DNA from: an uncultured Gammaproteobacteria bacterium
GTDB taxonomy: Bacteria > Patescibacteriota > Patescibacteriia > Magasanikbacterales > GWA2-37-8
DNA: 63,385 nt
Direction of reading: 5' to 3'
Assembly (NCBI GenBank): GCA_964570525.1
Contig: CAZMYO010000062.1
Coordinates: forward strand, 1-63,385
Shown piece after piece: positions 5,964 through 61,654 of the stretch. Under the pieces are notes generated by a model. The model was not told where the DNA came from and made no database searches. It worked only from the letters and a program-made list of their open reading frames with translations. Numbering within the stretch: the stretch's first letter is position 1; each line of letters starts with the position of its first letter. A program made the position numbers and the translations under genes.

Positions 5964-7787
5964 ATGTGCGGCATTATCGGTTACATCGGTCAAAAAGAAG
6001 CGTTACCGATCCTCATTAAGGGGCTGCGGCGTTTGGAATACCGCGGTTATGATTCCGCCGGTGTGGCGGTGTTTCATGAAGGAAAAGTGCGGCGCCGGCG
6101 CGCGGTGGGCAAGATTGATATGCTGGCCGAAAAGCTTAAAAAAGAATCGTTTCCGGGTACGGTTGGTATCGGCCATACACGCTGGGCCACGCACGGCGGC
6201 GTAACGGAGGAAAACGCGCATCCGCACACCGATTGCACCGGTAACATTATTGTGGCGCATAACGGCATTATTGAGAACTATCGCGAGCTAAAAAACAATT
6301 TTTTAACCGGGCATGCGTTCCATTCCGAGACCGATACGGAAATTCTGGCCCATCTCATCGAATTTTTTTATCGGGGAGATTTGCGTTTGGCGGTGGAGCG
6401 GGCGCTTAAAGAAGTGCGCGGAACCTATGGTTTGGTTGCGATGCATCTACAGGAACCGCGCAAGCTTATCGCGGCCAGACTCGGGAGCCCCCTAGTAGTC
6501 GGTGTCGGTGACAAAGAGTATTACCTGGCTTCCGACGCTTCTCCAATTTTGGCGTATACGCAGCAGGTTATTTTTTTAGATGATGGAGAAATAGTGGAGT
6601 TAACCGACCACAGTCTTCAAACCTTTAATCTTAAAGACGAAAAAATTAACAAATCCGCCGAGTTTATTGACTGGAATGAGAGTCAGGCAGAAAAGAACGG
6701 CTTCCCCCATTTCATGCTCAAAGAAATTTTTGATCAGCCCACCGTAATTAAAGACGCCATGCGCGGCCGGCTGGTGGAAGAAGACGGGGCGGCGCACTTG
6801 GGTGGACTTAACATGACGGAGCCCGAGATGCGCCGAGTGCAGCGGATTATTTTACTTGCTTGCGGGACTGCCTCGTACGCGGCACTGGTGGGCAAATATG
6901 CTTTTGAACGGCTGGCCGGTATTCCGACCGAGGTGGATGTGGCGAGCGAGTTCCGTTATCGTGACCCGATTATTGATAGCAATACTTTGGTATTTGGTGT
7001 TTCCCAATCGGGAGAAACAGCCGACACCTTGGCGGCTCTGCGCGAAGCCAAACGCAAAGGCGCCTTTGTGCGCGGCATCGTGAATGTGATCGGCTCCACC
7101 ATCGCGCGTGAAACCGACGGCGGCACCTATATTCACGCCGGGCCGGAGCTCGCGGTGGCTTCTTCCAAAGCGTATACCAATATGGTGGCGGTTTTGACAA
7201 TGTATGCTCTCCAGTTCGGCCGGAGTAGCAGGCTTACCGTTGCTACCGGCCAGCGCCTGGTTCGCGCGCTCAACGAGATTCCGGAAAAGATGAAAGTTGT
7301 TTTAACAGAAAGCGATAGGATTAAAAATATTGTTGAGAAACACAAAACTGCCACCAACTTTCTTTTTTTGGGACGCGGCATCAACTACCCGGTAGCTCTC
7401 GAAGGATCGCATAAGCTCAAAGAAATTTCCTATATCCACAGCGAAGCTTATCCGGCCGGCGAGATGAAACACGGAGCTAATGCCCTGCTCTCGCCGCAGT
7501 TTCCGGTTTTAGCCATCATGACCAAGAATCAACTATATGAAAAAATGCGCAGCAATGTTGAAGAGGTTCGAGCTCGCCACGCCCCGCTTATCCTCATCGC
7601 GACGGAGGGCGACACACAGGCCAAAGAGCTCGCCGATGATATTATTTTTGTGCCGCCGACCATGGAATTATTGGAGCCACTCATCAACACGATCCCACTT
7701 CAGCTGTTCGCCTACCATATGGCGGTAGCGCTGGGGAAAGATGTTGACCGGCCGAGAAACTTGGCTAAGAGTGTGACGGTTGAATAA
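5964..7787 (+). CDS. glmS: Glutamine--fructose-6-phosphate aminotransferase
   Basis: MCGIIGY provides the N-terminal nucleophile Cys2. Two SIS domains are present and the C-terminus is KSVTVE. The ORF-track start at 5895 would bury the catalytic Cys. Confidence 0.95.
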   Translation: MCGIIGYIGQKEALPILIKGLRRLEYRGYDSAGVAVFHEGKVRRRRAVGKIDMLAEKLKKESFPGTVGIGHTRWATHGGVTEENAHPHTDCTGNIIVAHNGIIENYRELKNNFLTGHAFHSETDTEILAHLIEFFYRGDLRLAVERALKEVRGTYGLVAMHLQEPRKLIAARLGSPLVVGVGDKEYYLASDASPILAYTQQVIFLDDGEIVELTDHSLQTFNLKDEKINKSAEFIDWNESQAEKNGFPHFMLKEIFDQPTVIKDAMRGRLVEEDGAAHLGGLNMTEPEMRRVQRIILLACGTASYAALVGKYAFERLAGIPTEVDVASEFRYRDPIIDSNTLVFGVSQSGETADTLAALREAKRKGAFVRGIVNVIGSTIARETDGGTYIHAGPELAVASSKAYTNMVAVLTMYALQFGRSSRLTVATGQRLVRALNEIPEKMKVVLTESDRIKNIVEKHKTATNFLFLGRGINYPVALEGSHKLKEISYIHSEAYPAGEMKHGANALLSPQFPVLAIMTKNQLYEKMRSNVEEVRARHAPLILIATEGDTQAKELADDIIFVPPTMELLEPLINTIPLQLFAYHMAVALGKDVDRPRNLAKSVTVE

Positions 7788-57396: not shown

Positions 57397-58440
57397 ATGG
57401 ATTTCTCTAAAGTTCGCGTTATCATATTCTCCATTCTGCTCGGGGCGGTTAGTATTTTTTTTCTCTACGTTGTTAGACCCCTCTTTTATCCCATCTTTTG
57501 GGCGGCCGTAATTGCCAGTATCGCCTATCCGCTTTACGTTCGCCTAAAAAGTAAAATTAAATACGCCAACCTTAGCGCCGCCATTATTCTTCTCGCTACG
57601 ACGCTTGTTATTATCGTGCCGGTAGTCTTTATTGGCAGTTTGCTGGTGAAAGAAACGATTGAGCTCTACGGAGAGCTGGGTGATAAGGGCGGGCAGATAA
57701 GCGGCGGTGTCCAGGCCGCTGTTAATTGGATAAAGCATAGCTCACTTGGAGAACTTACCATTGATGAAAATTTTTGGATAGAAAAAGTATCAGAGGTTGC
57801 CACTTTAGCCACCAACCTCTTGCTCTCGGGCATACGAAGCTTTACCGAAAACTCCCTTACCTTCCTCTTGATGTTTGTCATCATGCTGTATGCCTTATTT
57901 TACTTTATCCGGGACGGAGCCAAAATTTTGCGTAAAGCAATGCGCTTATTTCCGCTGGGTGACAAGCATGAAGTAATGTTTTATAACAAATTTACCTCCG
58001 CGGCGCGGGCGGCGATTAAGGGAACTTTGGTTATAGGTTTGGTGCAGGGGGGGCTCGGCACGCTTCTCTTTTTTGCCGTAGGAATTAAGGGCGCTCTAAT
58101 TTGGGGCACCGCCATGATGTTGTTCTCCATTCTCATTGGCGCGTACTTTATCTGGGTTCCGGCCGGACTCATCATGCTCGCGCTCGGCCACACCTGGCAG
58201 GGGGTTTTAATTTTCGCCGTCGGAATTCTCATTATCAGCACAATTGACAACCTGCTTCGGCCGATGCTCATTGGCCGCGATATCCAAATGCATCCGTTAC
58301 TTATCTTTCTCTCTACCTTGGGCGGCGCCTTGGTTTTTGGCCTCTCCGGTTTCGTAATCGGCCCGGTAATTACCGCGCTCCTTATTTCTTTTTGGGAAAT
58401 GTACGAACATTATTATAAGCAGGAGTTGTCGCATGATTGA
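57397..58440 (+). CDS. AI-2E family transporter (PerM/UPF0118)
   Basis: The STIDNLLRPMLIGRDIQMHPLLIFLSTLGG signature. Confidence 0.8.
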   Translation: MDFSKVRVIIFSILLGAVSIFFLYVVRPLFYPIFWAAVIASIAYPLYVRLKSKIKYANLSAAIILLATTLVIIVPVVFIGSLLVKETIELYGELGDKGGQISGGVQAAVNWIKHSSLGELTIDENFWIEKVSEVATLATNLLLSGIRSFTENSLTFLLMFVIMLYALFYFIRDGAKILRKAMRLFPLGDKHEVMFYNKFTSAARAAIKGTLVIGLVQGGLGTLLFFAVGIKGALIWGTAMMLFSILIGAYFIWVPAGLIMLALGHTWQGVLIFAVGILIISTIDNLLRPMLIGRDIQMHPLLIFLSTLGGALVFGLSGFVIGPVITALLISFWEMYEHYYKQELSHD

Positions 58441-60041
58441 ATCCACGGTCTATGTTGGCAGGTTTTGTTAAGATTAAATTTTTTTTTATTTCTCCGTGGT
58501 TTTCGCGCGCCATTATTATAGTGGCGCTTTTGTTTTGGTACGGATTTTTCCTTTTTCATCCGATTGATTTGATTCCGGCCGATTTGGGGCGGCACCTTAA
58601 AAACGGAGAACTGATTTTCTCCGATTCCAGAACGTTCAAGGCGCTCACCCATACTAATTTATACTCGGCCAATTTTGCCGACTTTCCTTTTATTAATCAC
58701 CACTGGGGCAGCGGCGTTATCTTCTTGGGCTTATATCGCTTGGGTAGCTTTGCTTTGCTCTCTGTTTTTTTTATCGTCGTGAGTTTGGCGGCTCTGGTTT
58801 TTGTTTTTGACGCGGCGCGTAAAGCGGCCGGTCTTTACCCGGCAACCCTTGTCGCTATTTTTCTGATTCCGCTACTCGCGGAGAGAACCGAAGCGCGGCC
58901 GGAAGTATTTACTTATTTATTCGCCGCTGTTTTCTGGTGGATTCTCTGGCATTACCGTAATGGCAGGTTTACGGCGCGCGCCCTTTGGCTACTCCCGTTT
59001 ATCCAGCTCCTCTGGGTCAACCTCCATATCTATTTCTTCGTTGGGCCGCTTCTTATCGGTATTTTTTGGTTGGACGCGCTTGTTAGCAAAGAAAAAAATA
59101 GACAGCGGATGAAAGAACTCGCGCTGGCCTTGGCCGTTGCTGCTCTCATAAATCTCGCTAACCCGAATGGCCTGGCCGGAGTTTTGTATCCTTTGCGCAT
59201 TTTTGGCAATTACGGTTTCCAGGTAGCGGAAAACCAGTCGGTTGTCACTACCGGCGCGCGCGATCCGCTCTATGCTAATTTGCTTGTTTTCAAACTTGCC
59301 TTTTTTGCCCTCCTCGGCGCTTTCGTTGTCGCCTTTTTAAAACGGCGGCGGCAGTTTCCCGTTGGCTACTTTTTACTGATGATTTTAGTAAGCGTTCTGG
59401 CCTGGCGATCGGTGCGCAACCTAACTTTATTCGCGCTTTTGGCCTTACCGGTTGGCGCCGAACTAATCAGGCTTTTACTCCCCAAACCACCGCCGCTCAA
59501 GCATCGCTCGGCCAGGCTGGTTTGTTTGGTTGCGATGGTCGTTATAGCCACGATATGGATCAGCCGAGCGCGTATTATAGAAACAGCTAAAATGGCGGGG
59601 CTTGGTCTGCGCCCGGGCAACCGCGCGGCAGCTGATTTTATTTTGAAAAACAACCTCAACGGGCCGCTCTTTAATGACTTTGATATCGGCGGTTACGCCA
59701 TTTTCTATTTGTACCCGCGCTGGCGTCCCTTTGCCGACAATCGCCCCGAAGCCTACCCCGCAACCTTCTTTACCGAAACCTATGTGCCGATGCAGACGGA
59801 TGAAAAAGTGTGGCAGGCGAAGGAAAAAGAATACGGCTTTAATCTTTTACTTTACTCGTTTCAAGATCGCGCTCCGTGGGCGGTGCCTTTTATTGTTCGG
59901 CGTCTCCTCGACCCCAGCTGGGCGCCGGTCTTTGCCGATCAGTACGCGATTATTTTTCTAAAGCGGAACGAGCAAAACGCCGAACTGATTAAGAATTACG
60001 AAATTCCGAGAGACCGGTTTGGTTTGCAGAAAATAAAATAA
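58437..60041 (+). CDS. Large polytopic membrane protein, possibly a GT-C-fold glycosyltransferase
   Basis: About 12 TM segments plus a C-terminal soluble domain. A TTGA overlap suggests a TTG start. ATG 58452 is an alternative. Confidence 0.45.
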   Translation: MNPRSMLAGFVKIKFFFISPWFSRAIIIVALLFWYGFFLFHPIDLIPADLGRHLKNGELIFSDSRTFKALTHTNLYSANFADFPFINHHWGSGVIFLGLYRLGSFALLSVFFIVVSLAALVFVFDAARKAAGLYPATLVAIFLIPLLAERTEARPEVFTYLFAAVFWWILWHYRNGRFTARALWLLPFIQLLWVNLHIYFFVGPLLIGIFWLDALVSKEKNRQRMKELALALAVAALINLANPNGLAGVLYPLRIFGNYGFQVAENQSVVTTGARDPLYANLLVFKLAFFALLGAFVVAFLKRRRQFPVGYFLLMILVSVLAWRSVRNLTLFALLALPVGAELIRLLLPKPPPLKHRSARLVCLVAMVVIATIWISRARIIETAKMAGLGLRPGNRAAADFILKNNLNGPLFNDFDIGGYAIFYLYPRWRPFADNRPEAYPATFFTETYVPMQTDEKVWQAKEKEYGFNLLLYSFQDRAPWAVPFIVRRLLDPSWAPVFADQYAIIFLKRNEQNAELIKNYEIPRDRFGLQKIK

Positions 60042-60073
60042 AGATACTCTTAAAGAAAATCTCTGCCGTCCCT

Positions 60074-60373
60074 TTATTGAGTTTCTATAAGTCGGAATCT
60101 AAAATTGTTAACTTTTTCTAGAGTTGTAATAGTCAAAGCAACCGAAAGGTTTGAAGTATTTTTTAGAAATACCTGATCCCCATATTGTTTTTGTATGGGG
60201 GTCAGAAACTCATCACCCCAAGAAGGTGAGAATGTATTCATACCAGAAAAATCAATAATCAACTGTTCGCCTTCTTTTAATTCTGATAGCGTAGGCAAGA
60301 ATGCTAAGTAGGCCTCTTTACCGGCTTGCCGAGAGGTTAAAACATTACCAAATTTTTTCATGAATACATTCAT
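60074..60373 (-). CDS. STAS-like small protein (DUF4325-type)
   Basis: LTSRQAGKEAY...LIIDFSGMNTFSPSWGDEFL matches my recollection of the DUF4325/STAS-like pattern. The region is low in GC. Confidence 0.55.
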   Translation of the reverse strand: MNVFMKKFGNVLTSRQAGKEAYLAFLPTLSELKEGEQLIIDFSGMNTFSPSWGDEFLTPIQKQYGDQVFLKNTSNLSVALTITTLEKVNNFRFRLIETQ

Positions 60374-60396
60374 ATAATTTTATGGCTTTAATTGTG

Positions 60397-61131
60397 TTAA
60401 AATTCTATCATGGATAAGCACCCGCGAATAGGCACGTCAGCCTCATTTATAGTGAAGCTTGATTTGCCTTTTTTTATTTCAAGCACAGAATTACCCGATT
60501 GGAAAAAAAGATTCGCTTTTGCTTGCATAATGGCATCTCTGACATATTTCAAACCATTACCCCGATGTTCAGGAGCCCGGCCAGTAACGAATTCTGTGAA
60601 GGCAACATGTAGGGCCTCCTTATCATTCTTAAGGCCAGGTCTTATCCGGCGCAATGTTGTCAATACACCAACGCCACGATCGGCGAGCACAATTCGGCGC
60701 TTGCCTAAATCGTAAGCAAAGAATGTACCCATAATATCAGGCCAATTACCGAGGTTGTGATCAAAAGAATTGTTTCCAATTTCACCTGCCGCAGAAGAAA
60801 CTAACGAATTGATACCTTCAAGGGTTGATTCGGCATTTAATTCATTCGCCATTCTTTCGTGCCGGGCTTTAAACCTATCGCTTGTGGAGCAATAAAAATC
60901 TTGCTGTGGCATAAAAGGATCCGTAGCGCTGGCCCACTCTTGAGCAAGTCTAAAGATACCCTTTGTTTTTCTTTCCAGATCAGACAATGAGTAATAGCGA
61001 TGACCTCCTGGCGAACGAAAGGTGGCCCTAAAAGACCCGCTGTTATCCCATCTTCGGAGTGTTGCTTCTGATAAACCAAGGTGCCGAGCAGCATCCTTAA
61101 TGGAAAGAAGGTTTTTGTTTAAATTATGCAT
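60397..61131 (-). CDS. Excisionase/MerR-type HTH fused to a GHKL (histidine-kinase-like) ATPase domain
   Basis: The HTH is LSIKDAARHLGLSEATLRRWDNSG. EIGNNSFDH is N-box-like, DRGVGV is G1-like, and HRGNGL is G2-like. The start at 61131 is supported by the promoter at 61148-61176. Confidence 0.6.
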   Translation of the reverse strand: MHNLNKNLLSIKDAARHLGLSEATLRRWDNSGSFRATFRSPGGHRYYSLSDLERKTKGIFRLAQEWASATDPFMPQQDFYCSTSDRFKARHERMANELNAESTLEGINSLVSSAAGEIGNNSFDHNLGNWPDIMGTFFAYDLGKRRIVLADRGVGVLTTLRRIRPGLKNDKEALHVAFTEFVTGRAPEHRGNGLKYVRDAIMQAKANLFFQSGNSVLEIKKGKSSFTINEADVPIRGCLSMIEF

Positions 61132-61147
61132 ATTTAGACTTAAGATA

Positions 61148-61176
61148 ATTATACATAAGTTATACAAATTTGTCAA
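61148..61176 (-). promoter_or_regulatory. Consensus sigma70 promoter for the HTH-ATPase/STAS module
   Basis: On the minus strand: TTGACA, a 17-nt spacer, then TATAAT. Only ~10 nt remain before the ATG, giving a near-leaderless transcript. Confidence 0.55.
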
Positions 61177-61380
61177 ATCTATACAAATCTATACATTAAT
61201 GCGAATTCTGTCAAACAAGGCTTAAAAATTAACCGACCTCGCCTCAAAACCACGCTTTTCCGCTAAAAATAGCCAAATTCTCATAGTCAACCTTTTGTGA
61301 CCATGATTCTTAGTTTTTTTTCAAGGAAGAGGGGGAAAGGCCCCCTACCACCTTTGGTTAAAATCCCTTCCTCCATAATT

Positions 61381-61421
61381 AAAATAATTCCGCTCGCCAA
61401 AATGGCGAGCGGAATTATTTT
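61381..61421. terminator. Terminator after the tRNA array
   Basis: aaaataattccgctcgcc-aaaa-tggcgagcggaattatttt. Confidence 0.6.
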
Positions 61422-61422
61422 G

Positions 61423-61496
61423 TTGCGGGGGTGGGATTTGAACCCACGACCTGGTGGTTATGAGCCACCCGAGCTGCCAGGCTGCTCTACCCCGCT
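61423..61496 (-). tRNA. tRNA-Met (CAU), initiator-like
   Basis: A hand-folded cloverleaf: AGCGGGG/CCCCGCA acceptor stem, CTCATAA anticodon loop, GTGGG-TTCAAAT-CCCAC T arm. It is close to E. coli tRNA-fMet and has a 1:72 A-A mismatch. CCA is not encoded. Confidence 0.85.
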
Positions 61497-61500
61497 GTGA

Positions 61501-61577
61501 TAGTCTAAAGTCTTTAAAGTCGTAAAGTCGAAAGTCGTGACTTTATAGACTTTATGACTTTACGGACTTTCGACTTC
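61501..61577. repeat. AAGTC-word imperfect hairpin between two tRNA genes
   Basis: tctaaagtctttaaagtcgtaaagtcgaaagtc faces gactttatagactttatgactttacggactttcgac. Confidence 0.7.
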
Positions 61578-61580
61578 GGG

Positions 61581-61654
61581 AGCGGTAGACCGGATTCGAA
61601 CCGGCGACCTTCTCCTTGGCAAGGAGACGTTCTAGCCAACTGAACTACTACCGC
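61581..61654 (-). tRNA. tRNA-Gly (GCC)
   Basis: A hand-folded cloverleaf: GCGGTAG/CTACCGC acceptor stem, TTGCCAA anticodon loop, GCCGG-TTCGAAT-CCGGT T arm. CCA is not encoded. Confidence 0.9.

What the first reader, a model, noticed from the sequence alone, without database searches (positions are those of the whole stretch)
60074..61176. Low-GC two-gene module next to a tRNA array: HTH-fused GHKL ATPase plus STAS-like DUF4325-type protein, a candidate partner-switching or defence-type system
- A consensus promoter (61148-61176) sits almost directly on the start codon of a 244-aa protein. That protein joins an excisionase/MerR-type HTH (LSIKDAARHLGLSEATLRRWDNSG) to a region with GHKL-like N, G1 and G2 boxes (EIGNNSFDH, DRGVGV, HRGNGL).
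- A 99-aa protein with a STAS-like pattern (IIDFSGMNTFSPSWGDEF) follows 23 nt downstream.
- The module is markedly AT-rich (21/60 GC in 60121-60180).
- It lies immediately 3' of the tRNA-Met/tRNA-Gly array, a classical landing zone for mobile DNA. No integrase remains.
- RsbW/SpoIIAB-type GHKL kinases act on STAS antagonists. Here the kinase-like protein itself carries the DNA-binding domain, so the switch could act directly on DNA, as a regulator or as a nucleic-acid-triggered defence or abortive module.
- I do not recognise it as a named system.
Basis: partly seen in the sequence, partly recalled or inferred. Interest (0 to 1): 0.65.

Follow-up and report, generated by a model that had tools for sequence, protein, structure and literature searches.

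The report
DNA-binding kinase plus STAS partner cassette
This is a real, self-contained two-gene switch of ultra-small (CPR/Patescibacteria) bacteria: a DNA-binding domain fused to an anti-sigma-type kinase domain sits on repeats in its own promoter and is always paired with a small STAS protein, and the pair behaves as a mobile accessory cassette whose cellular role is still unknown.

Summary
On the minus strand, a perfect TTGACA-17-TATAAT promoter (61176-61148) drives gene A (61131-60397, 244 aa) and gene B (60373-60074, 99 aa).

- **Gene A:** a MerR/BldC/Xis-type winged HTH fused to a Bergerat-fold (GHKL) domain with invariant N, G1 and G2 boxes. Pfam misses the GHKL part; the fold, the motifs and remote homology support it.
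- **Gene B:** a DUF4325 STAS-fold protein with a conserved [S/T]-P-S at the phospho-acceptor position.
- **Pairing:** B follows A in 79 of 79 evaluable loci, and no third gene recurs.
- **Operator:** five tandem ~10-nt boxes (TGTATAGATT) cover the -35 and -10 elements. Homologues have equivalent arrays with lineage-specific box sequences that track one recognition-helix residue.
- **Not housekeeping:** about 10% of Patescibacteria genomes carry the pair. Its GC is at the 1st percentile of this genome.
- **Mobility signs in relatives:** about 18% of related loci have 22-151-nt direct repeats of a neighbouring gene's 3' end on both sides, and 13% lie just 3' of a tRNA. This copy has no flanking repeats.

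Best reading: a self-repressing, partner-switch-like kinase/STAS cassette. It is a new variant relative to SpoIIAB-SpoIIAA and CapK/CapS (2026). A defence or addiction role is possible but unshown.

The parts
61146..61195 (-). Operator array. Five tandem ~10-nt units start at 61195, 61185, 61175, 61166 and 61155: TGTATAGATT, TGTATAGATT, TGACAAATT (degenerate, contains the -35), TGTATAACTT and TGTATAATTA (contains the -10).
   Evidence: Read directly from the sequence. The exact 10-mer occurs only twice in the 1.06-Mb genome, both times here. Equivalent arrays occur in homologues' promoters: at least 3 copies in 61 of 80 loci against 24 of 80 shuffled controls. Framed boxes average 1.82 per promoter against a background of 0.048 per 130 nt, with typical spacings of 10 or 19-21 nt.
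61148..61176 (-). Sigma-70-type promoter TTGACA-17 nt-TATAAT. It leaves a leader of only about 9-10 nt before the ATG.
   Evidence: 12 of 12 consensus matches, confirmed in the sequence.
60397..61131 (-). Gene A, 244 aa: an N-terminal MerR/BldC/Xis-type winged HTH fused to a C-terminal GHKL (Bergerat-fold) kinase/ATPase-like domain.
   Evidence: The family has a fixed length of about 244 aa and is confined to Patescibacteria.
60970..61110 (-). Winged HTH, residues 8-54 (LSIKDAARHLGLSEATLRRWDNSG...GGHRYYS). Residue A23, just before the invariant TLRRW, is the candidate specificity determinant.
   Evidence: Pfam HTH_17, MerR and MerR_1 pass their cut-offs. PDB sequence hits are CarH, TipAN, MtaN and BldC-like proteins. 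Fold hits include MtaN and CarH. Asp at this residue goes with TGCATAG boxes and non-Asp with TGTATAG boxes.
60400..60882 (-). GHKL-like domain, residues about 84-244. N box GEIGNNSFDHN at 60754-60786; G1 box ADRGVGV at 60664-60684; G2/lid EHRGNGLK at 60547-60570. The lid loop (residues 183-191) is modelled with low confidence.
   Evidence: Foldseek top hits are all GHKL proteins. The motif residues are invariant. 5 of 41 distant members hit HATPase_c_2. hhalign against a HATPase_c_2-DUF4325 fusion gives E=1.9e-4.
60074..60373 (-). Gene B, 99 aa: a single-domain STAS-fold protein (DUF4325). The invariant block F48-S49-P50-S51-W52-G53-D54-E55-F56 (60206-60232) sits at the N-terminal cap of the second long helix.
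   Evidence: Pfam DUF4325 scores 25.6 bits against a cut-off of 23. Distant orthologues keep [S/T]-P-S-W-x-D-E-F. The model has pLDDT 95. B lies directly downstream of A in 79 of 79 evaluable loci.
61381..61421 (-). Context: a perfect 19-bp hairpin directly after tRNA-Met, probably the terminator of the tRNA transcription unit. About 165 nt of unassigned spacer follow before the cassette promoter.
   Evidence: Inverted repeat I2 and the sequence itself.
61422..61654 (-). Context: tRNA-Gly(gcc) at 61579-61654 and tRNA-Met(cat) at 61422-61496. Both are co-oriented with the cassette and lie immediately upstream of it.
   Evidence: ARAGORN and Rfam. In related loci a co-oriented tRNA lies within 300 nt upstream in 10 of 77 cases, against 1 of 70 downstream.

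Best explanation
**What it is.** A and B form a self-contained, self-repressing signalling cassette that is horizontally spread among Patescibacteria.

**Proposed mechanism**
- A binds through its coiled-coil-less MerR/BldC/Xis-type winged HTH, as a head-to-tail multimer, to five tandem ~10-bp boxes that cover the -35 and -10 of its own promoter. This shuts off the A-B operon.
- A's C-terminal domain is a small GHKL ATP-binding module of the anti-sigma serine-kinase type (SpoIIAB, RsbW, RsbT, CapK).
- B is its dedicated STAS partner. It docks on the kinase domain and is probably phosphorylated on the conserved hydroxyl pair S49/S51 at the cap of helix 2.
- Binding or phosphorylation of B, set by ATP/ADP or an unknown cue, changes A's oligomeric state on DNA and therefore promoter occupancy. 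The arrangement is a partner switch in which the kinase itself is the transcription factor.

**Output in this genome.** The only recognisable target is the cassette's own promoter, so the loop looks closed.

**Shown and inferred**
- Shown: the gene structure, the domains and folds, motif conservation, strict pairing, the operator arrays, patchy distribution, atypical composition, and repeat-bracketed copies elsewhere.
- Inferred: DNA binding by A, kinase activity, phosphorylation of B, the direction of regulation, and the biological role.
For: - Domains and folds.
- ATP-binding residues E117, N121, D151, G153, G155, R190, G191, G193 and L194 are invariant in 41 diverse representatives.
- Links to HATPase_c_2: 5 of 41 members hit it. 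hhalign against a single-chain wHTH-HATPase_c_2-DUF4325 protein gives E=1.9e-4 for A's domain and 1.1e-3 for B. The same three domains therefore also exist fused in one chain.
- B keeps [S/T]49-P-S51 at the helix-2 cap in orthologues down to about 43% identity. That is the position of the phospho-serine in SpoIIAA, RsbS, CapS and VapS (PMC13373217).
- B follows A in 79 of 79 loci with gaps of 0-54 nt, and no third family recurs.
- Operator arrays overlap the promoter here and in homologues. The exact box is unique to this promoter in the genome.
- The residue before TLRRW is Asp in 18 of 18 loci with TGCATAG boxes and never Asp in 23 loci with TGTATAG boxes.
- BldC, a MerR-like HTH without a coiled coil, binds direct repeats as head-to-tail multimers (PMC5859096). 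The NCBIfam BldC model and PDB BldC chains give weak hits to A.
Against: - No biochemical data exist, and no RNA data were available.
- The GHKL domain does not reach any Pfam or NCBIfam GHKL model itself, and profiles find no GHKL chain in PDB by sequence. Its assignment to the kinase subclass rather than the ATPase subclass of GHKL rests on domain size, the STAS partner and weak HATPase_c_2 links.
- The top fold hits are Hsp90, TRAP1 and topoisomerase II, not SpoIIAB.
- The related single-chain fusion has G-Q-A where B has S-P-S, so DUF4325 domains need not be phospho-acceptors.
- The genome has no SpoIIE-type PP2C phosphatase to reset a phospho-switch.
- After phylogenetic correction, the box/residue covariation rests on only one independent contrast on well-supported branches, or 7 on the best tree.
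- A closed regulatory loop with no output gives no obvious benefit to the host.
Confidence: 0.55

Rival explanations
1. Toxin-antitoxin, addiction or abortive-defence module. The GHKL domain of A is the harmful activity: it phosphorylates a host target or burns ATP. B is the neutralising pseudo-substrate or antitoxin. The A-B complex autorepresses its promoter as type II TA systems do. The cassette then persists by addiction or gives phage protection.
For: - The unit is about 1.1 kb, holds two genes, regulates itself and carries no cargo. Its only recognisable DNA target is its own promoter.
- Distribution is patchy, composition is foreign, and there are tRNA-proximal and repeat-bracketed copies.
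- The same genome holds another small repeat-bracketed cassette 3' of tRNA-Ser.
- Precedent: VapKSC uses a GHKL kinase and a STAS antitoxin and protects against a phage (PMC13373217).
Against: - No known toxin domain is present, and there is no PADLOC hit beyond the HTH.
- The VapC-like third gene is absent.
- Both proteins are unusually well conserved for a conflict system. Among the closer homologues A is 58-79% identical and B 57-91%, with long invariant blocks.
- Only 1 hit in 2.9 million viral contigs, and none in the phage or plasmid collections.
Confidence: 0.2
2. Mobility accessory. A is an excisionase-like recombination directionality or architectural factor. It coats tandem boxes at the cassette's left end, next to the att-like repeat, so that a host or foreign tyrosine recombinase can excise or integrate the integrase-less cassette. 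The GHKL/STAS pair gates this.
For: - The HTH belongs to the HTH_17/excisionase-MerR class.
- Binding sites are tandem direct repeats with about one helical turn of spacing, as for Xis, Cox and RdfS-type wHTH factors that oligomerise on DNA (PMC11963761).
- In repeat-bracketed loci the boxes begin 20-60 nt inside the upstream repeat.
- Tyrosine-recombinase genes lie within the fetched flanks in 10 of 80 loci, against about 1.5 expected.
- The cassettes never carry their own integrase.
Against: - The boxes overlap the -35 and -10 so precisely that transcriptional autoregulation is the simpler reading.
- The junctions share no core sequence, and the duplicated segments differ at every site.
- Five of the ten recombinase-linked loci share one synteny (Xer-like gene, tRNA-His, cassette), so they are not independent.
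- This window's copy has no flanking repeats, and no excised or empty form was seen in metagenome contigs.
Confidence: 0.1
3. Vertically inherited, lineage-wide housekeeping regulator of Patescibacteria. Its patchiness would reflect only gene loss and incomplete genomes.
For: - Sequence conservation is very high and the length is fixed at 244/96-99 aa across many CPR classes.
- At least 597 loci occur in species-representative genomes.
Against: - The pair is present in only 36 of 369 high-quality genomes of the phylum and 12 of 39 in the same family or order, at 90% or higher completeness.
- The best matches among species representatives lie outside the window's own family: 58-60% identity against at most 54% within it.
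- Neighbouring genes differ at almost every locus.
- GC is at the 1st percentile and GC3 at the 0.5th percentile of its own genome.
- About 18% of loci have repeat-bracketed insertions.
Confidence: 0.05
4. Same architecture, but the GHKL domain is a non-kinase ATPase clamp, as in MutL, Hsp90 or MORC. ATP-driven dimerisation controls DNA binding. B is an unphosphorylated regulatory ligand that binds depending on nucleotide state.
For: - The N box reads E-x-x-x-N-x-x-D (E117, N121, D124), which matches the GHL ATPase motif I (my own knowledge of the motif).
- The top fold hits are Hsp90, TRAP1 and topoisomerase II.
- The fused relative lacks the serines.
- The genome has no PP2C phosphatase.
Against: - The domain is only about 160 aa and has no transducer domain, like SpoIIAB/RsbW-type kinases.
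- Distant members hit HATPase_c_2.
- Position 49 is always Ser or Thr and S51 is invariant at the canonical acceptor site.
- Every characterised GHKL + STAS pair is a kinase with its substrate (PMC13373217).
Confidence: 0.15

Closest known systems
CapK/CapS (Chambers et al., EMBO J 2026, PMC13373217)
   Same: - The gene order is the same: an HTH-bearing GHKL anti-sigma-type kinase followed directly by a STAS protein with an absolutely conserved serine on helix 2.
- The pair autoregulates through sites in its own promoter region.
- The context is accessory or mobile.
   Different: - CapK is HTH-STAS-GHKL. A has no internal STAS domain (secondary structure).
- CapS is STAS-wHTH and is itself the DNA-binding repressor. 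B is a bare 99-aa STAS, so here the only DNA-binding domain is on the kinase.
- CapKS precedes an immune operon in 348 of 443 cases. No gene recurs next to A-B.
- CapS binds palindromes, whereas the boxes here are tandem direct repeats.
- No significant sequence match was found. The best PDB hit for B is the related VapS at E=0.29.
VapKSC toxin-antitoxin system (same paper)
   Same: A GHKL kinase is paired with a small STAS protein that has little beyond the STAS domain. VapS is the best PDB profile hit for B, though not a significant one.
   Different: - VapKSC has a third gene, a VapC PIN nuclease, which is the effector. None is present here.
- VapK has STAS+GHKL and no MerR-type HTH.
- The hit is not significant (E=0.29).
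SpoIIAB-SpoIIAA, RsbW-RsbV and RsbT-RsbS partner-switching modules (Bacillus and relatives)
   Same: - A small GHKL serine-kinase domain with N, G1 and G2 boxes is paired with a single-domain STAS partner.
- B's closest solved folds are RsbS, stressosome STAS proteins and anti-sigma antagonists.
- The serine sits at the helix-2 cap.
   Different: - No sigma factor is involved. The kinase-like protein carries its own HTH.
- The genome has no PP2C (SpoIIE/RsbU) phosphatase.
- A does not reach the HATPase_c_2 model.
- B belongs to DUF4325, not the canonical STAS families.
Single-chain wHTH-HATPase_c_2-DUF4325 proteins (uncharacterised; example L006 8199-9242, 347 aa)
   Same: They have the same three modules (DNA-binding head, GHKL domain, DUF4325) and are homologous by hhalign in both parts.
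   Different: - All three modules are fused in one chain.
- The head is HTH_24-type instead of MerR-type.
- The DUF4325 part has G-Q-A where B has S-P-S.
- The function is equally unknown.
BldC and wHTH recombination directionality factors such as Xis and RdfS
   Same: These are MerR-like or excisionase-like winged HTH proteins without the MerR coiled coil. They recognise tandem direct repeats as head-to-tail multimers (PMC5859096, PMC11963761).
   Different: They are stand-alone proteins of about 60-90 aa with no enzyme domain. The match of A to the NCBIfam BldC model is far below its cut-off (21 bits against 77).
Integrase-less cis-mobilisable cassettes (CIME-like elements) and type II TA cassettes at tRNA or gene 3' ends
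   Same: In about 18% of related loci, direct repeats that duplicate the target gene's 3' end bracket a unit of about 1.1-1.3 kb with no recombinase.
   Different: - The repeats differ at every site and share no core.
- The mechanism of movement is unknown.
- This window's copy has no repeats.

Membership tests
Pfam DUF4325 (PF14213, STAS-like) | Protein B scores above the curated gathering threshold. | tested here: met
   25.6 bits against a cut-off of 23. A whole-genome search finds the same single hit.
STAS fold | A compact alternating beta/alpha fold that matches solved STAS domains. | tested here: met
   Model pLDDT 95. Foldseek hits are RsbS, stressosome, anti-sigma-antagonist and SLC26 STAS domains, with probability up to 1.0 and TM about 0.6.
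GHKL / Bergerat-fold ATP-binding superfamily | Bergerat fold with conserved N (ExxxN), G1 (DxGxG) and G2 boxes. | tested here: met
   All top Foldseek hits are GHKL proteins. E117, N121, D151, G153, G155, G191 and G193 are invariant in 41 diverse members.
Pfam HATPase_c_2 / HATPase_c | Protein A itself scores against the family model. | tested here: not met
   No hit at E<=1. Only 5 of 41 distant relatives reach HATPase_c_2, with a best E of 8.7e-4. hhalign against a HATPase_c_2 protein gives E=1.9e-4.
SpoIIAB/RsbW-type partner switching | A STAS partner with a conserved Ser/Thr at the N-terminus of helix 2. | tested here: met
   [S/T]49-P-S51 is conserved in all orthologues examined and lies at the helix cap in the model.
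SpoIIAB/RsbW-type partner switching | The kinase sequesters a sigma factor (anti-sigma function). | not testable with these tools
   No sigma gene is linked to the pair, and no neighbour recurs. A carries its own HTH instead.
SpoIIAB/RsbW-type partner switching | A cognate PP2C (SpoIIE/RsbU-type) phosphatase. | tested here: not met
   PF07228 has no match in the 98%-complete genome, while positive controls were detected. Other phosphatase families were not searched.
SpoIIAB/RsbW-type partner switching | The kinase phosphorylates the STAS serine. | not testable with these tools
   This needs biochemistry.
CapK/CapS | CapK architecture: HTH-STAS-GHKL. | tested here: not met
   Between the HTH (residues 8-54) and the GHKL domain (from about residue 84), A has only helices and a linker. 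No STAS domain is present.
CapK/CapS | CapS architecture: STAS followed by a wHTH, with CapS acting as the repressor. | tested here: not met
   B is 99 aa and consists of a single STAS domain.
CapK/CapS | The kinase gene is immediately followed by the STAS gene. | tested here: met
   79 of 79 evaluable loci, with gaps of 0-54 nt.
CapK/CapS | The pair lies upstream of an immune operon. | tested here: not met
   No flanking family recurs in more than 8 of 80 loci. In this window a convergent membrane-protein gene lies downstream. Flanking genes were not scanned with defence-gene models.
VapKSC | A third gene encoding a VapC/PIN toxin. | tested here: not met
   No recurrent third gene.
Classical MerR-family regulators | An N-terminal winged HTH of MerR type. 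| tested here: met
   MerR and MerR_1 score above their cut-offs. PDB hits are CarH, TipAN, MtaN and BmrR.
Classical MerR-family regulators | A long coiled-coil dimerisation helix, plus a palindromic operator inside a 19-20-bp promoter spacer. | tested here: not met
   The HTH is followed by a 10-residue helix and a linker. The spacer is 17 nt, and the operator is made of tandem direct repeats.
BldC-like / excisionase-like wHTH | A coiled-coil-less MerR-like HTH that acts on tandem direct repeats. | tested here: inconclusive
   The direct-repeat array is present. The NCBIfam BldC model scores 21 bits against a cut-off of 77, and TIGR01764 excisionase scores 16.8 against 28.8. Binding itself was not tested.
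Type II toxin-antitoxin modules | A recognisable toxin domain, or demonstrated toxicity neutralised by the partner. | not testable with these tools
   No toxin family was detected. Toxicity needs an experiment.
Site-specific integrative element at a tRNA | Flanking direct repeats (att) and an integrase. | tested here: not met
   This copy has no flank repeat above chance and no integrase in the window region. Repeats are present in about 14 of 77 related loci.

The most novel reading that the evidence does not exclude
The A-B pair may be a new kind of integrase-less selfish cassette of CPR bacteria. In this reading, an anti-sigma-type kinase has itself become the DNA-bound factor. It coats tandem boxes at the element's edge, acting both as the element's repressor and as an Xis-like architectural factor. 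Its ATP/STAS switch decides when the 1.1-kb unit is silent and when host tyrosine recombinases move it between gene and tRNA 3' ends.
Probability: 0.08. Interest if true: 0.85.

Novelty: new variant of a known kind. Interest (0 to 1): 0.55.

Why it matters
- **Regulation in CPR bacteria.** Patescibacteria have tiny genomes with very few regulators, and almost none of their lineage-specific signalling has been characterised. This family has at least 597 loci in species representatives.
- **Experimental tractability.** Both proteins are small, and the operator is a short array whose sequence appears to be set by a single residue. The hypothesis can therefore be tested directly in E. coli.
- **Gene flow without integrases.** At family level, the cassette behaves like DNA that moves without its own integrase and duplicates the 3' ends of its target genes. 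The same genome shows a similar footprint at other tRNAs. This points to an unexplained route of gene flow in CPR genomes.
- **If it proves ordinary.** It still extends the recently described CapK/CapS logic to a new phylum and a new architecture.

Tried and rejected
- **Direct profile hits for the GHKL domain:** none in Pfam, NCBIfam or PADLOC.
- **Sequence profiles of A or its C-domain against PDB:** only MerR-type heads were found, with no GHKL chain.
- **B against PDB by sequence:** only a non-significant VapS hit.
- **The PADLOC mad1 hit (E=1.4e-10):** it covers only the 50-residue HTH, so I rejected it as evidence for MADS membership.
- **A second operator cluster on contig C12:** rejected as a target. 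It sits beside TGTGGATAA DnaA-box-like repeats and fronts no gene.
- **Flanking direct repeats in this window:** none above chance.
- **Empty site in relatives:**
  - Only G014 has the neighbouring 534-aa gene.
  - Synteny breaks downstream of it, with neither tRNAs nor a cassette, so it is not a clean empty site.
- **Population-level empty site or excision joint in three metagenomes:** none seen. Only assembled contigs were available.
- **RNA evidence:** no RNA runs hold the sequence.
- **Phage and plasmid collections:** no match. Viral contigs gave 1 hit in 2.9 million.
- **Known RNA families in the cassette:** only the two tRNAs pass threshold.
- **Shared core motif at cassette junctions:** none.
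- **Phylogenetically corrected test of box/residue covariation:**
  - It was underpowered.
  - Only one contrast lies on well-supported branches.
Full report
**1. What is in the sequence**

On the minus strand of 60074-61195 lies a compact two-gene unit.
- A perfect sigma-70-type promoter drives it: TTGACA 61176-61171, a 17-nt spacer, TATAAT 61153-61148, a 12/12 match (sequence). It ends 16 nt before the ATG of gene A.
- Gene A runs 61131-60397 and encodes 244 aa. The longer TTG-initiated frame listed would include the promoter. Homologues start at the ATG.
- Gene B runs 60373-60074, encodes 99 aa and follows after 23 nt.
- Upstream, in the same orientation, are tRNA-Gly(gcc) at 61579-61654 and tRNA-Met at 61422-61496, followed by a perfect 19-bp hairpin at 61381-61421.
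- Downstream, B's stop codon is 32 nt from the stop of a convergent 534-aa membrane-protein gene that has no Pfam family.
- The cassette has GC 0.396 against a genome value of 0.479, the 1st percentile of 1.1-kb windows. GC3 of A+B is at the 0.5th percentile of the genome's ORFs.

**2. Protein A**

*DNA-binding head.* Residues 8-54 pass the curated cut-offs of Pfam HTH_17, MerR and MerR_1. They match the DNA-binding heads of CarH, TipA, MtaN, BmrR and, weakly, BldC in PDB.

*C-terminal domain: negative results.* No GHKL profile in Pfam, NCBIfam or PADLOC matches A itself. Sequence profiles find no GHKL chain in PDB.

- The AlphaFold model has pLDDT 84, with low confidence only at residues 1-4 and in the loop 183-191, where an ATP lid would lie. 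Its top Foldseek hits in PDB are exclusively GHKL proteins: Hsp90, TRAP1 and topoisomerase II, at E about 3e-4 and probability 0.96-1.0. The head hits MtaN and CarH.
- The proposed N, G1 and G2 boxes are the invariant columns of the family. E117, N121, H125, N126, D151, G153, G155, R190, G191, G193 and L194 are conserved in 38 close homologues and in 41 representatives down to about 30% identity.
- 5 of those 41 representatives reach Pfam HATPase_c_2, and 4 reach HATPase_c.
- The family profile aligns with a genuine HATPase_c_2 domain across all three boxes (hhalign E=1.9e-4).

*Size and family extent.* The domain is about 160 residues with no transducer domain, the size of SpoIIAB/RsbW-type kinases. 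An exhaustive search of 1.84 billion cluster representatives with the C-domain alone found only 327 clusters. They fall into an HTH-fused class of about 245 aa and an HTH-less class of about 195 aa. A few members carry MarR, HTH_24 or HTH_11 heads instead of MerR.

**3. Protein B**

- B passes the DUF4325 threshold, 25.6 bits against 23.
- It folds with pLDDT 95.
- It matches RsbS, stressosome STAS proteins, anti-sigma-factor antagonists and SLC26 STAS domains, with probability up to 1.0 and TM about 0.6.
- The block F48-S49-P50-S51-W52-G53-D54-E55-F56 is invariant in 33 homologues. In orthologues down to about 43% identity the motif remains [S/T]-P-S-W-x-D-E-F: position 49 always keeps a hydroxyl and S51 never changes.
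- In the model the block caps the second long helix. That is where SpoIIAA, RsbS, CapS and VapS carry the serine phosphorylated by their GHKL kinase (PMC13373217).
- B's best PDB profile hit is VapS, but it is not significant (E=0.29).

**4. The two genes are one unit**

- B lies directly downstream of A in all 16 loci of the first sample and in 79 of 79 evaluable loci of an 80-locus sample from species-representative genomes, with gaps of 0-54 nt.
- Clustering of 626 flanking ORFs found no third family in more than 8 of 80 loci. There is therefore no conserved effector, sigma factor or phosphatase.
- This genome has no SpoIIE-type PP2C and only this one DUF4325 protein.
- In one related locus a 347-aa protein carries wHTH + HATPase_c_2 + DUF4325 in a single chain. 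Both of its parts align with A's C-domain and with B, so A+B is a split form of a recurrent three-module architecture. That fusion has G-Q-A where B has S-P-S. This is a caution against assuming phosphorylation.

**5. Operator**

*In this window.* The 50 bp from 61195 to 61146 consist of five tandem units starting at 61195, 61185, 61175, 61166 and 61155. They read TGTATAGATT, TGTATAGATT, TGACAAATT, TGTATAACTT and TGTATAATTA. The -35 and -10 hexamers are embedded in them. The exact 10-mer occurs only twice in the 1.06-Mb genome, both times here. The only other cluster of three TGTATA cores lies among DnaA-box-like repeats on another contig and fronts no gene.

*In homologues.*
- Promoters of homologues carry the same arrangement.
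- At least 3 copies of a best 8-mer occur in 61 of 80 promoters, against 24 of 80 shuffled controls. At least 4 copies occur in 21, against 3.
- The framed pattern T-K-N-N-T-A-G-D-T occurs 1.82 times per promoter against 0.048 per 130 nt of background, with spacings clustered at 10 and 19-21 nt.
- A box fused to the -35 (TAGATTTGACA) recurs in many lineages.

*Covariation with the recognition helix.*
- The variable NN of the box tracks the residue that precedes the invariant T-L-R-R-W. It is Asp in 18 of 18 loci with TGCATAG boxes, and Gln, Ala, Thr or Met in 23 of 23 loci with TGTATAG boxes. This window has Ala and TGTATAG.
- On a tree built from the kinase-like domain alone, the paired state changes 4-5 times.
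- Deep branches are poorly supported. Only one independent contrast lies on well-supported branches, against 7 on the best tree. I therefore call the covariation suggestive, not established.

*Reading.* Tandem direct repeats at one-turn spacing, together with a MerR-like head that lacks the coiled coil, are the BldC/Xis/RdfS mode of binding as head-to-tail multimers (PMC5859096, PMC11963761). They are not the classical MerR mode, which uses a dyad in a 19-20-bp spacer.

**6. Distribution and mobility**

*Distribution.*
- The family is confined to Patescibacteria and spread over many of its classes. At least 597 loci were found, with record titles naming Uhr-, Magasanik-, Woese-, Sacchari-, Peregrini-, Portnoy-, Paceibacteria and others.
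- It is sporadic: 12 of 39 high-quality genomes in the same family or order, and 36 of 369 across the phylum, or 36 of 322 genera.
- The best species-representative matches lie outside the window's own family: 58-60% identity against at most 54% within it.
- Flanking genes differ nearly everywhere.

*tRNA adjacency.* A co-oriented tRNA lies within 300 nt upstream in 10 of 77 loci, involving at least 8 different tRNA species. Only 1 of 70 loci has one downstream, against a tRNA density of 0.07 per kb. This window fits the pattern: tRNA-Met ends 291 nt upstream.

*Flanking repeats in related loci.*
- In about 14 of 77 loci the unit is bracketed by direct repeats of 22-151 nt at 81-97% identity.
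- The layout is: repeat copy, 66-149 nt of promoter, A, B, a tail, second repeat copy. The tail is 0-65 nt in ten of the fourteen loci and 116-498 nt in the other four. Three of those four (L089, L090, L091) carry one extra ORF after B.
- In most of these loci the duplicated sequence is recognisably the 3' end, and often the terminator, of the abutting gene. Examples are an ABC exporter, a protease-like gene and tRNA-Ala. It differs at every site, and there is no shared core.
- None of these units carries a recombinase.
- Tyrosine-recombinase genes are nearby in 10 of 80 loci, against about 1.5 expected, but five of the ten share one synteny.

*This copy.*
- It shows no flank repeat above chance.
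- No clean empty site was found in the one relative that has the neighbouring gene.
- No excision joint appears in metagenome contigs.

*Other collections and the rest of this genome.*
- The module is absent from the phage and plasmid collections, and nearly absent from viral contigs.
- This genome does have another cassette of about 0.9 kb bracketed by copies of a tRNA-Ser tail.
- Several other tRNAs have short copies of their 3' ends close downstream.

**7. Interpretation**

*Best-supported reading (confidence 0.55).* This is a self-repressing partner-switch-like cassette. A multimerises head-to-tail on the boxes and occludes its own promoter. Its GHKL domain binds ATP and B. Docking or phosphorylation of B at S49/S51 changes A's occupancy of the DNA.

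*What is shown and what is inferred.* The anatomy, conservation and distribution are shown. DNA binding, kinase activity and the direction of control are inferred by analogy with SpoIIAB-SpoIIAA and CapK-CapS.

*The closed loop.* The only recognisable target is the cassette's own promoter, and the unit travels without cargo. A purely host-serving regulatory role is therefore hard to see.

*Rivals.*
- TA, addiction or defence module: 0.2.
- Xis-like mobility function: 0.1.
- ATPase clamp without phosphotransfer: 0.15.

**8. Comparison with what is known**

- The closest described systems are CapK/CapS and VapKSC (PMC13373217). In both, a GHKL anti-sigma-type kinase phosphorylates a STAS serine.
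- The pair here is not a member of either. A lacks CapK's internal STAS domain, B lacks CapS's wHTH, no immune operon or VapC gene follows, and the operator is a direct-repeat array rather than a palindrome.
- It is also not a canonical SpoIIAB/RsbW module, since there is no sigma factor, no PP2C and no HATPase_c_2 model hit.
- Full-text searches found no paper on DUF4325 function, and none on this CPR pair.
- I rate it a new variant of a known kind. It keeps the GHKL-kinase/STAS logic but places the DNA-binding function on the kinase, and it is packaged as a mobile, cargo-less cassette restricted to one phylum.

**9. Use of earlier notes from this scan**

Earlier AI notes suggested the promoter repeats, the CapK/CapS comparison and the repeat-bracketed insertion pattern. 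I treated them as leads and re-derived each from the sequences:
- operator arrays;
- the paper and the architecture comparison;
- flank repeats.

The insertion-footprint lead changed my reading from a plain regulator to a mobile cassette. For this window's copy the footprint is absent.

Noticed in passing
window 61502-61575: The spacer between tRNA-Gly(gcc) and tRNA-Met is an imperfect palindrome with 28-nt arms, built from repeated AAGTC/GACTT pentamers (inverted repeats I1, I3 and I5). Metagenome contigs show length variants here.
   Followed up: no
genome contig C12 (outside the window), about 1.1-1.25 kb from one contig end: Two TGTGGATAA repeats (the complement of the DnaA-box consensus) are followed by TGTATAT, TGTATAG and TGTATAC boxes in an intergenic region next to a LAGLIDADG-like ORF. 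This may be an oriC or DnaA-box cluster. It is the only other cluster of three TGTATA cores in the genome.
   Followed up: partly
genome contigs C3, C7, C13, C41 and C60 (outside the window): Several tRNA genes have exact copies of their 3' tails downstream. tRNA-Ser(cga) on C7 has a copy of at least 34 nt about 908 nt away, which brackets a small cassette. Val, Gln, Lys, Trp and Thr tRNAs have 19-20-nt copies 30-170 nt away. These look like integration or excision scars.
   Followed up: partly
L006 8199-9242 (minus strand): A 347-aa single-chain wHTH + HATPase_c_2 + DUF4325 protein lies 2.5 kb from an A-B pair in the same Patescibacteria contig. It is the fused counterpart of the split pair, but has G-Q-A in place of B's S-P-S motif.
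   Followed up: yes
L020, L027, L032, L033, L070: Recurrent synteny: a Xer-like tyrosine recombinase (42-45% identical to the one on this genome's contig C57), then tRNA-His, then the A-B cassette directly 3' of the tRNA.
   Followed up: partly
L089 (about 2252-2750), L090 (about 6800-7236), L091 (about 1744-1981): In three repeat-bracketed units one extra ORF sits between B and the second repeat copy: a 157-aa coiled-coil-like protein, a 145-aa protein (possibly NUDIX-like; no profile scan was run), and a small hydrophobic ORF. The unit can therefore pick up cargo.
   Followed up: no
window 60071-60634, as seen in run X3: A lake-water metagenome holds cassette fragments about 90% identical to this one but none of the flanking genes. 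A near-identical cassette therefore exists in another population or context.
   Followed up: no
window 58437-60041: This 534-aa polytopic membrane protein has no Pfam family. It overlaps the upstream AI-2E transporter gene by 4 nt. Among 30 relatives it has an orthologue in only one, and synteny breaks exactly at its 3' end, where the cassette sits.
   Followed up: partly
window 61215-61380: About 165 nt of unassigned spacer lie between the tRNA-Met terminator hairpin and the cassette promoter. It contains a second TTGACA (61214-61209) and a GGGGGCCTTTCCCCC hairpin (61332-61345). Only sub-threshold Rfam hits occur here, including PreQ1 at 20 bits against a gathering score of 39.
   Followed up: no
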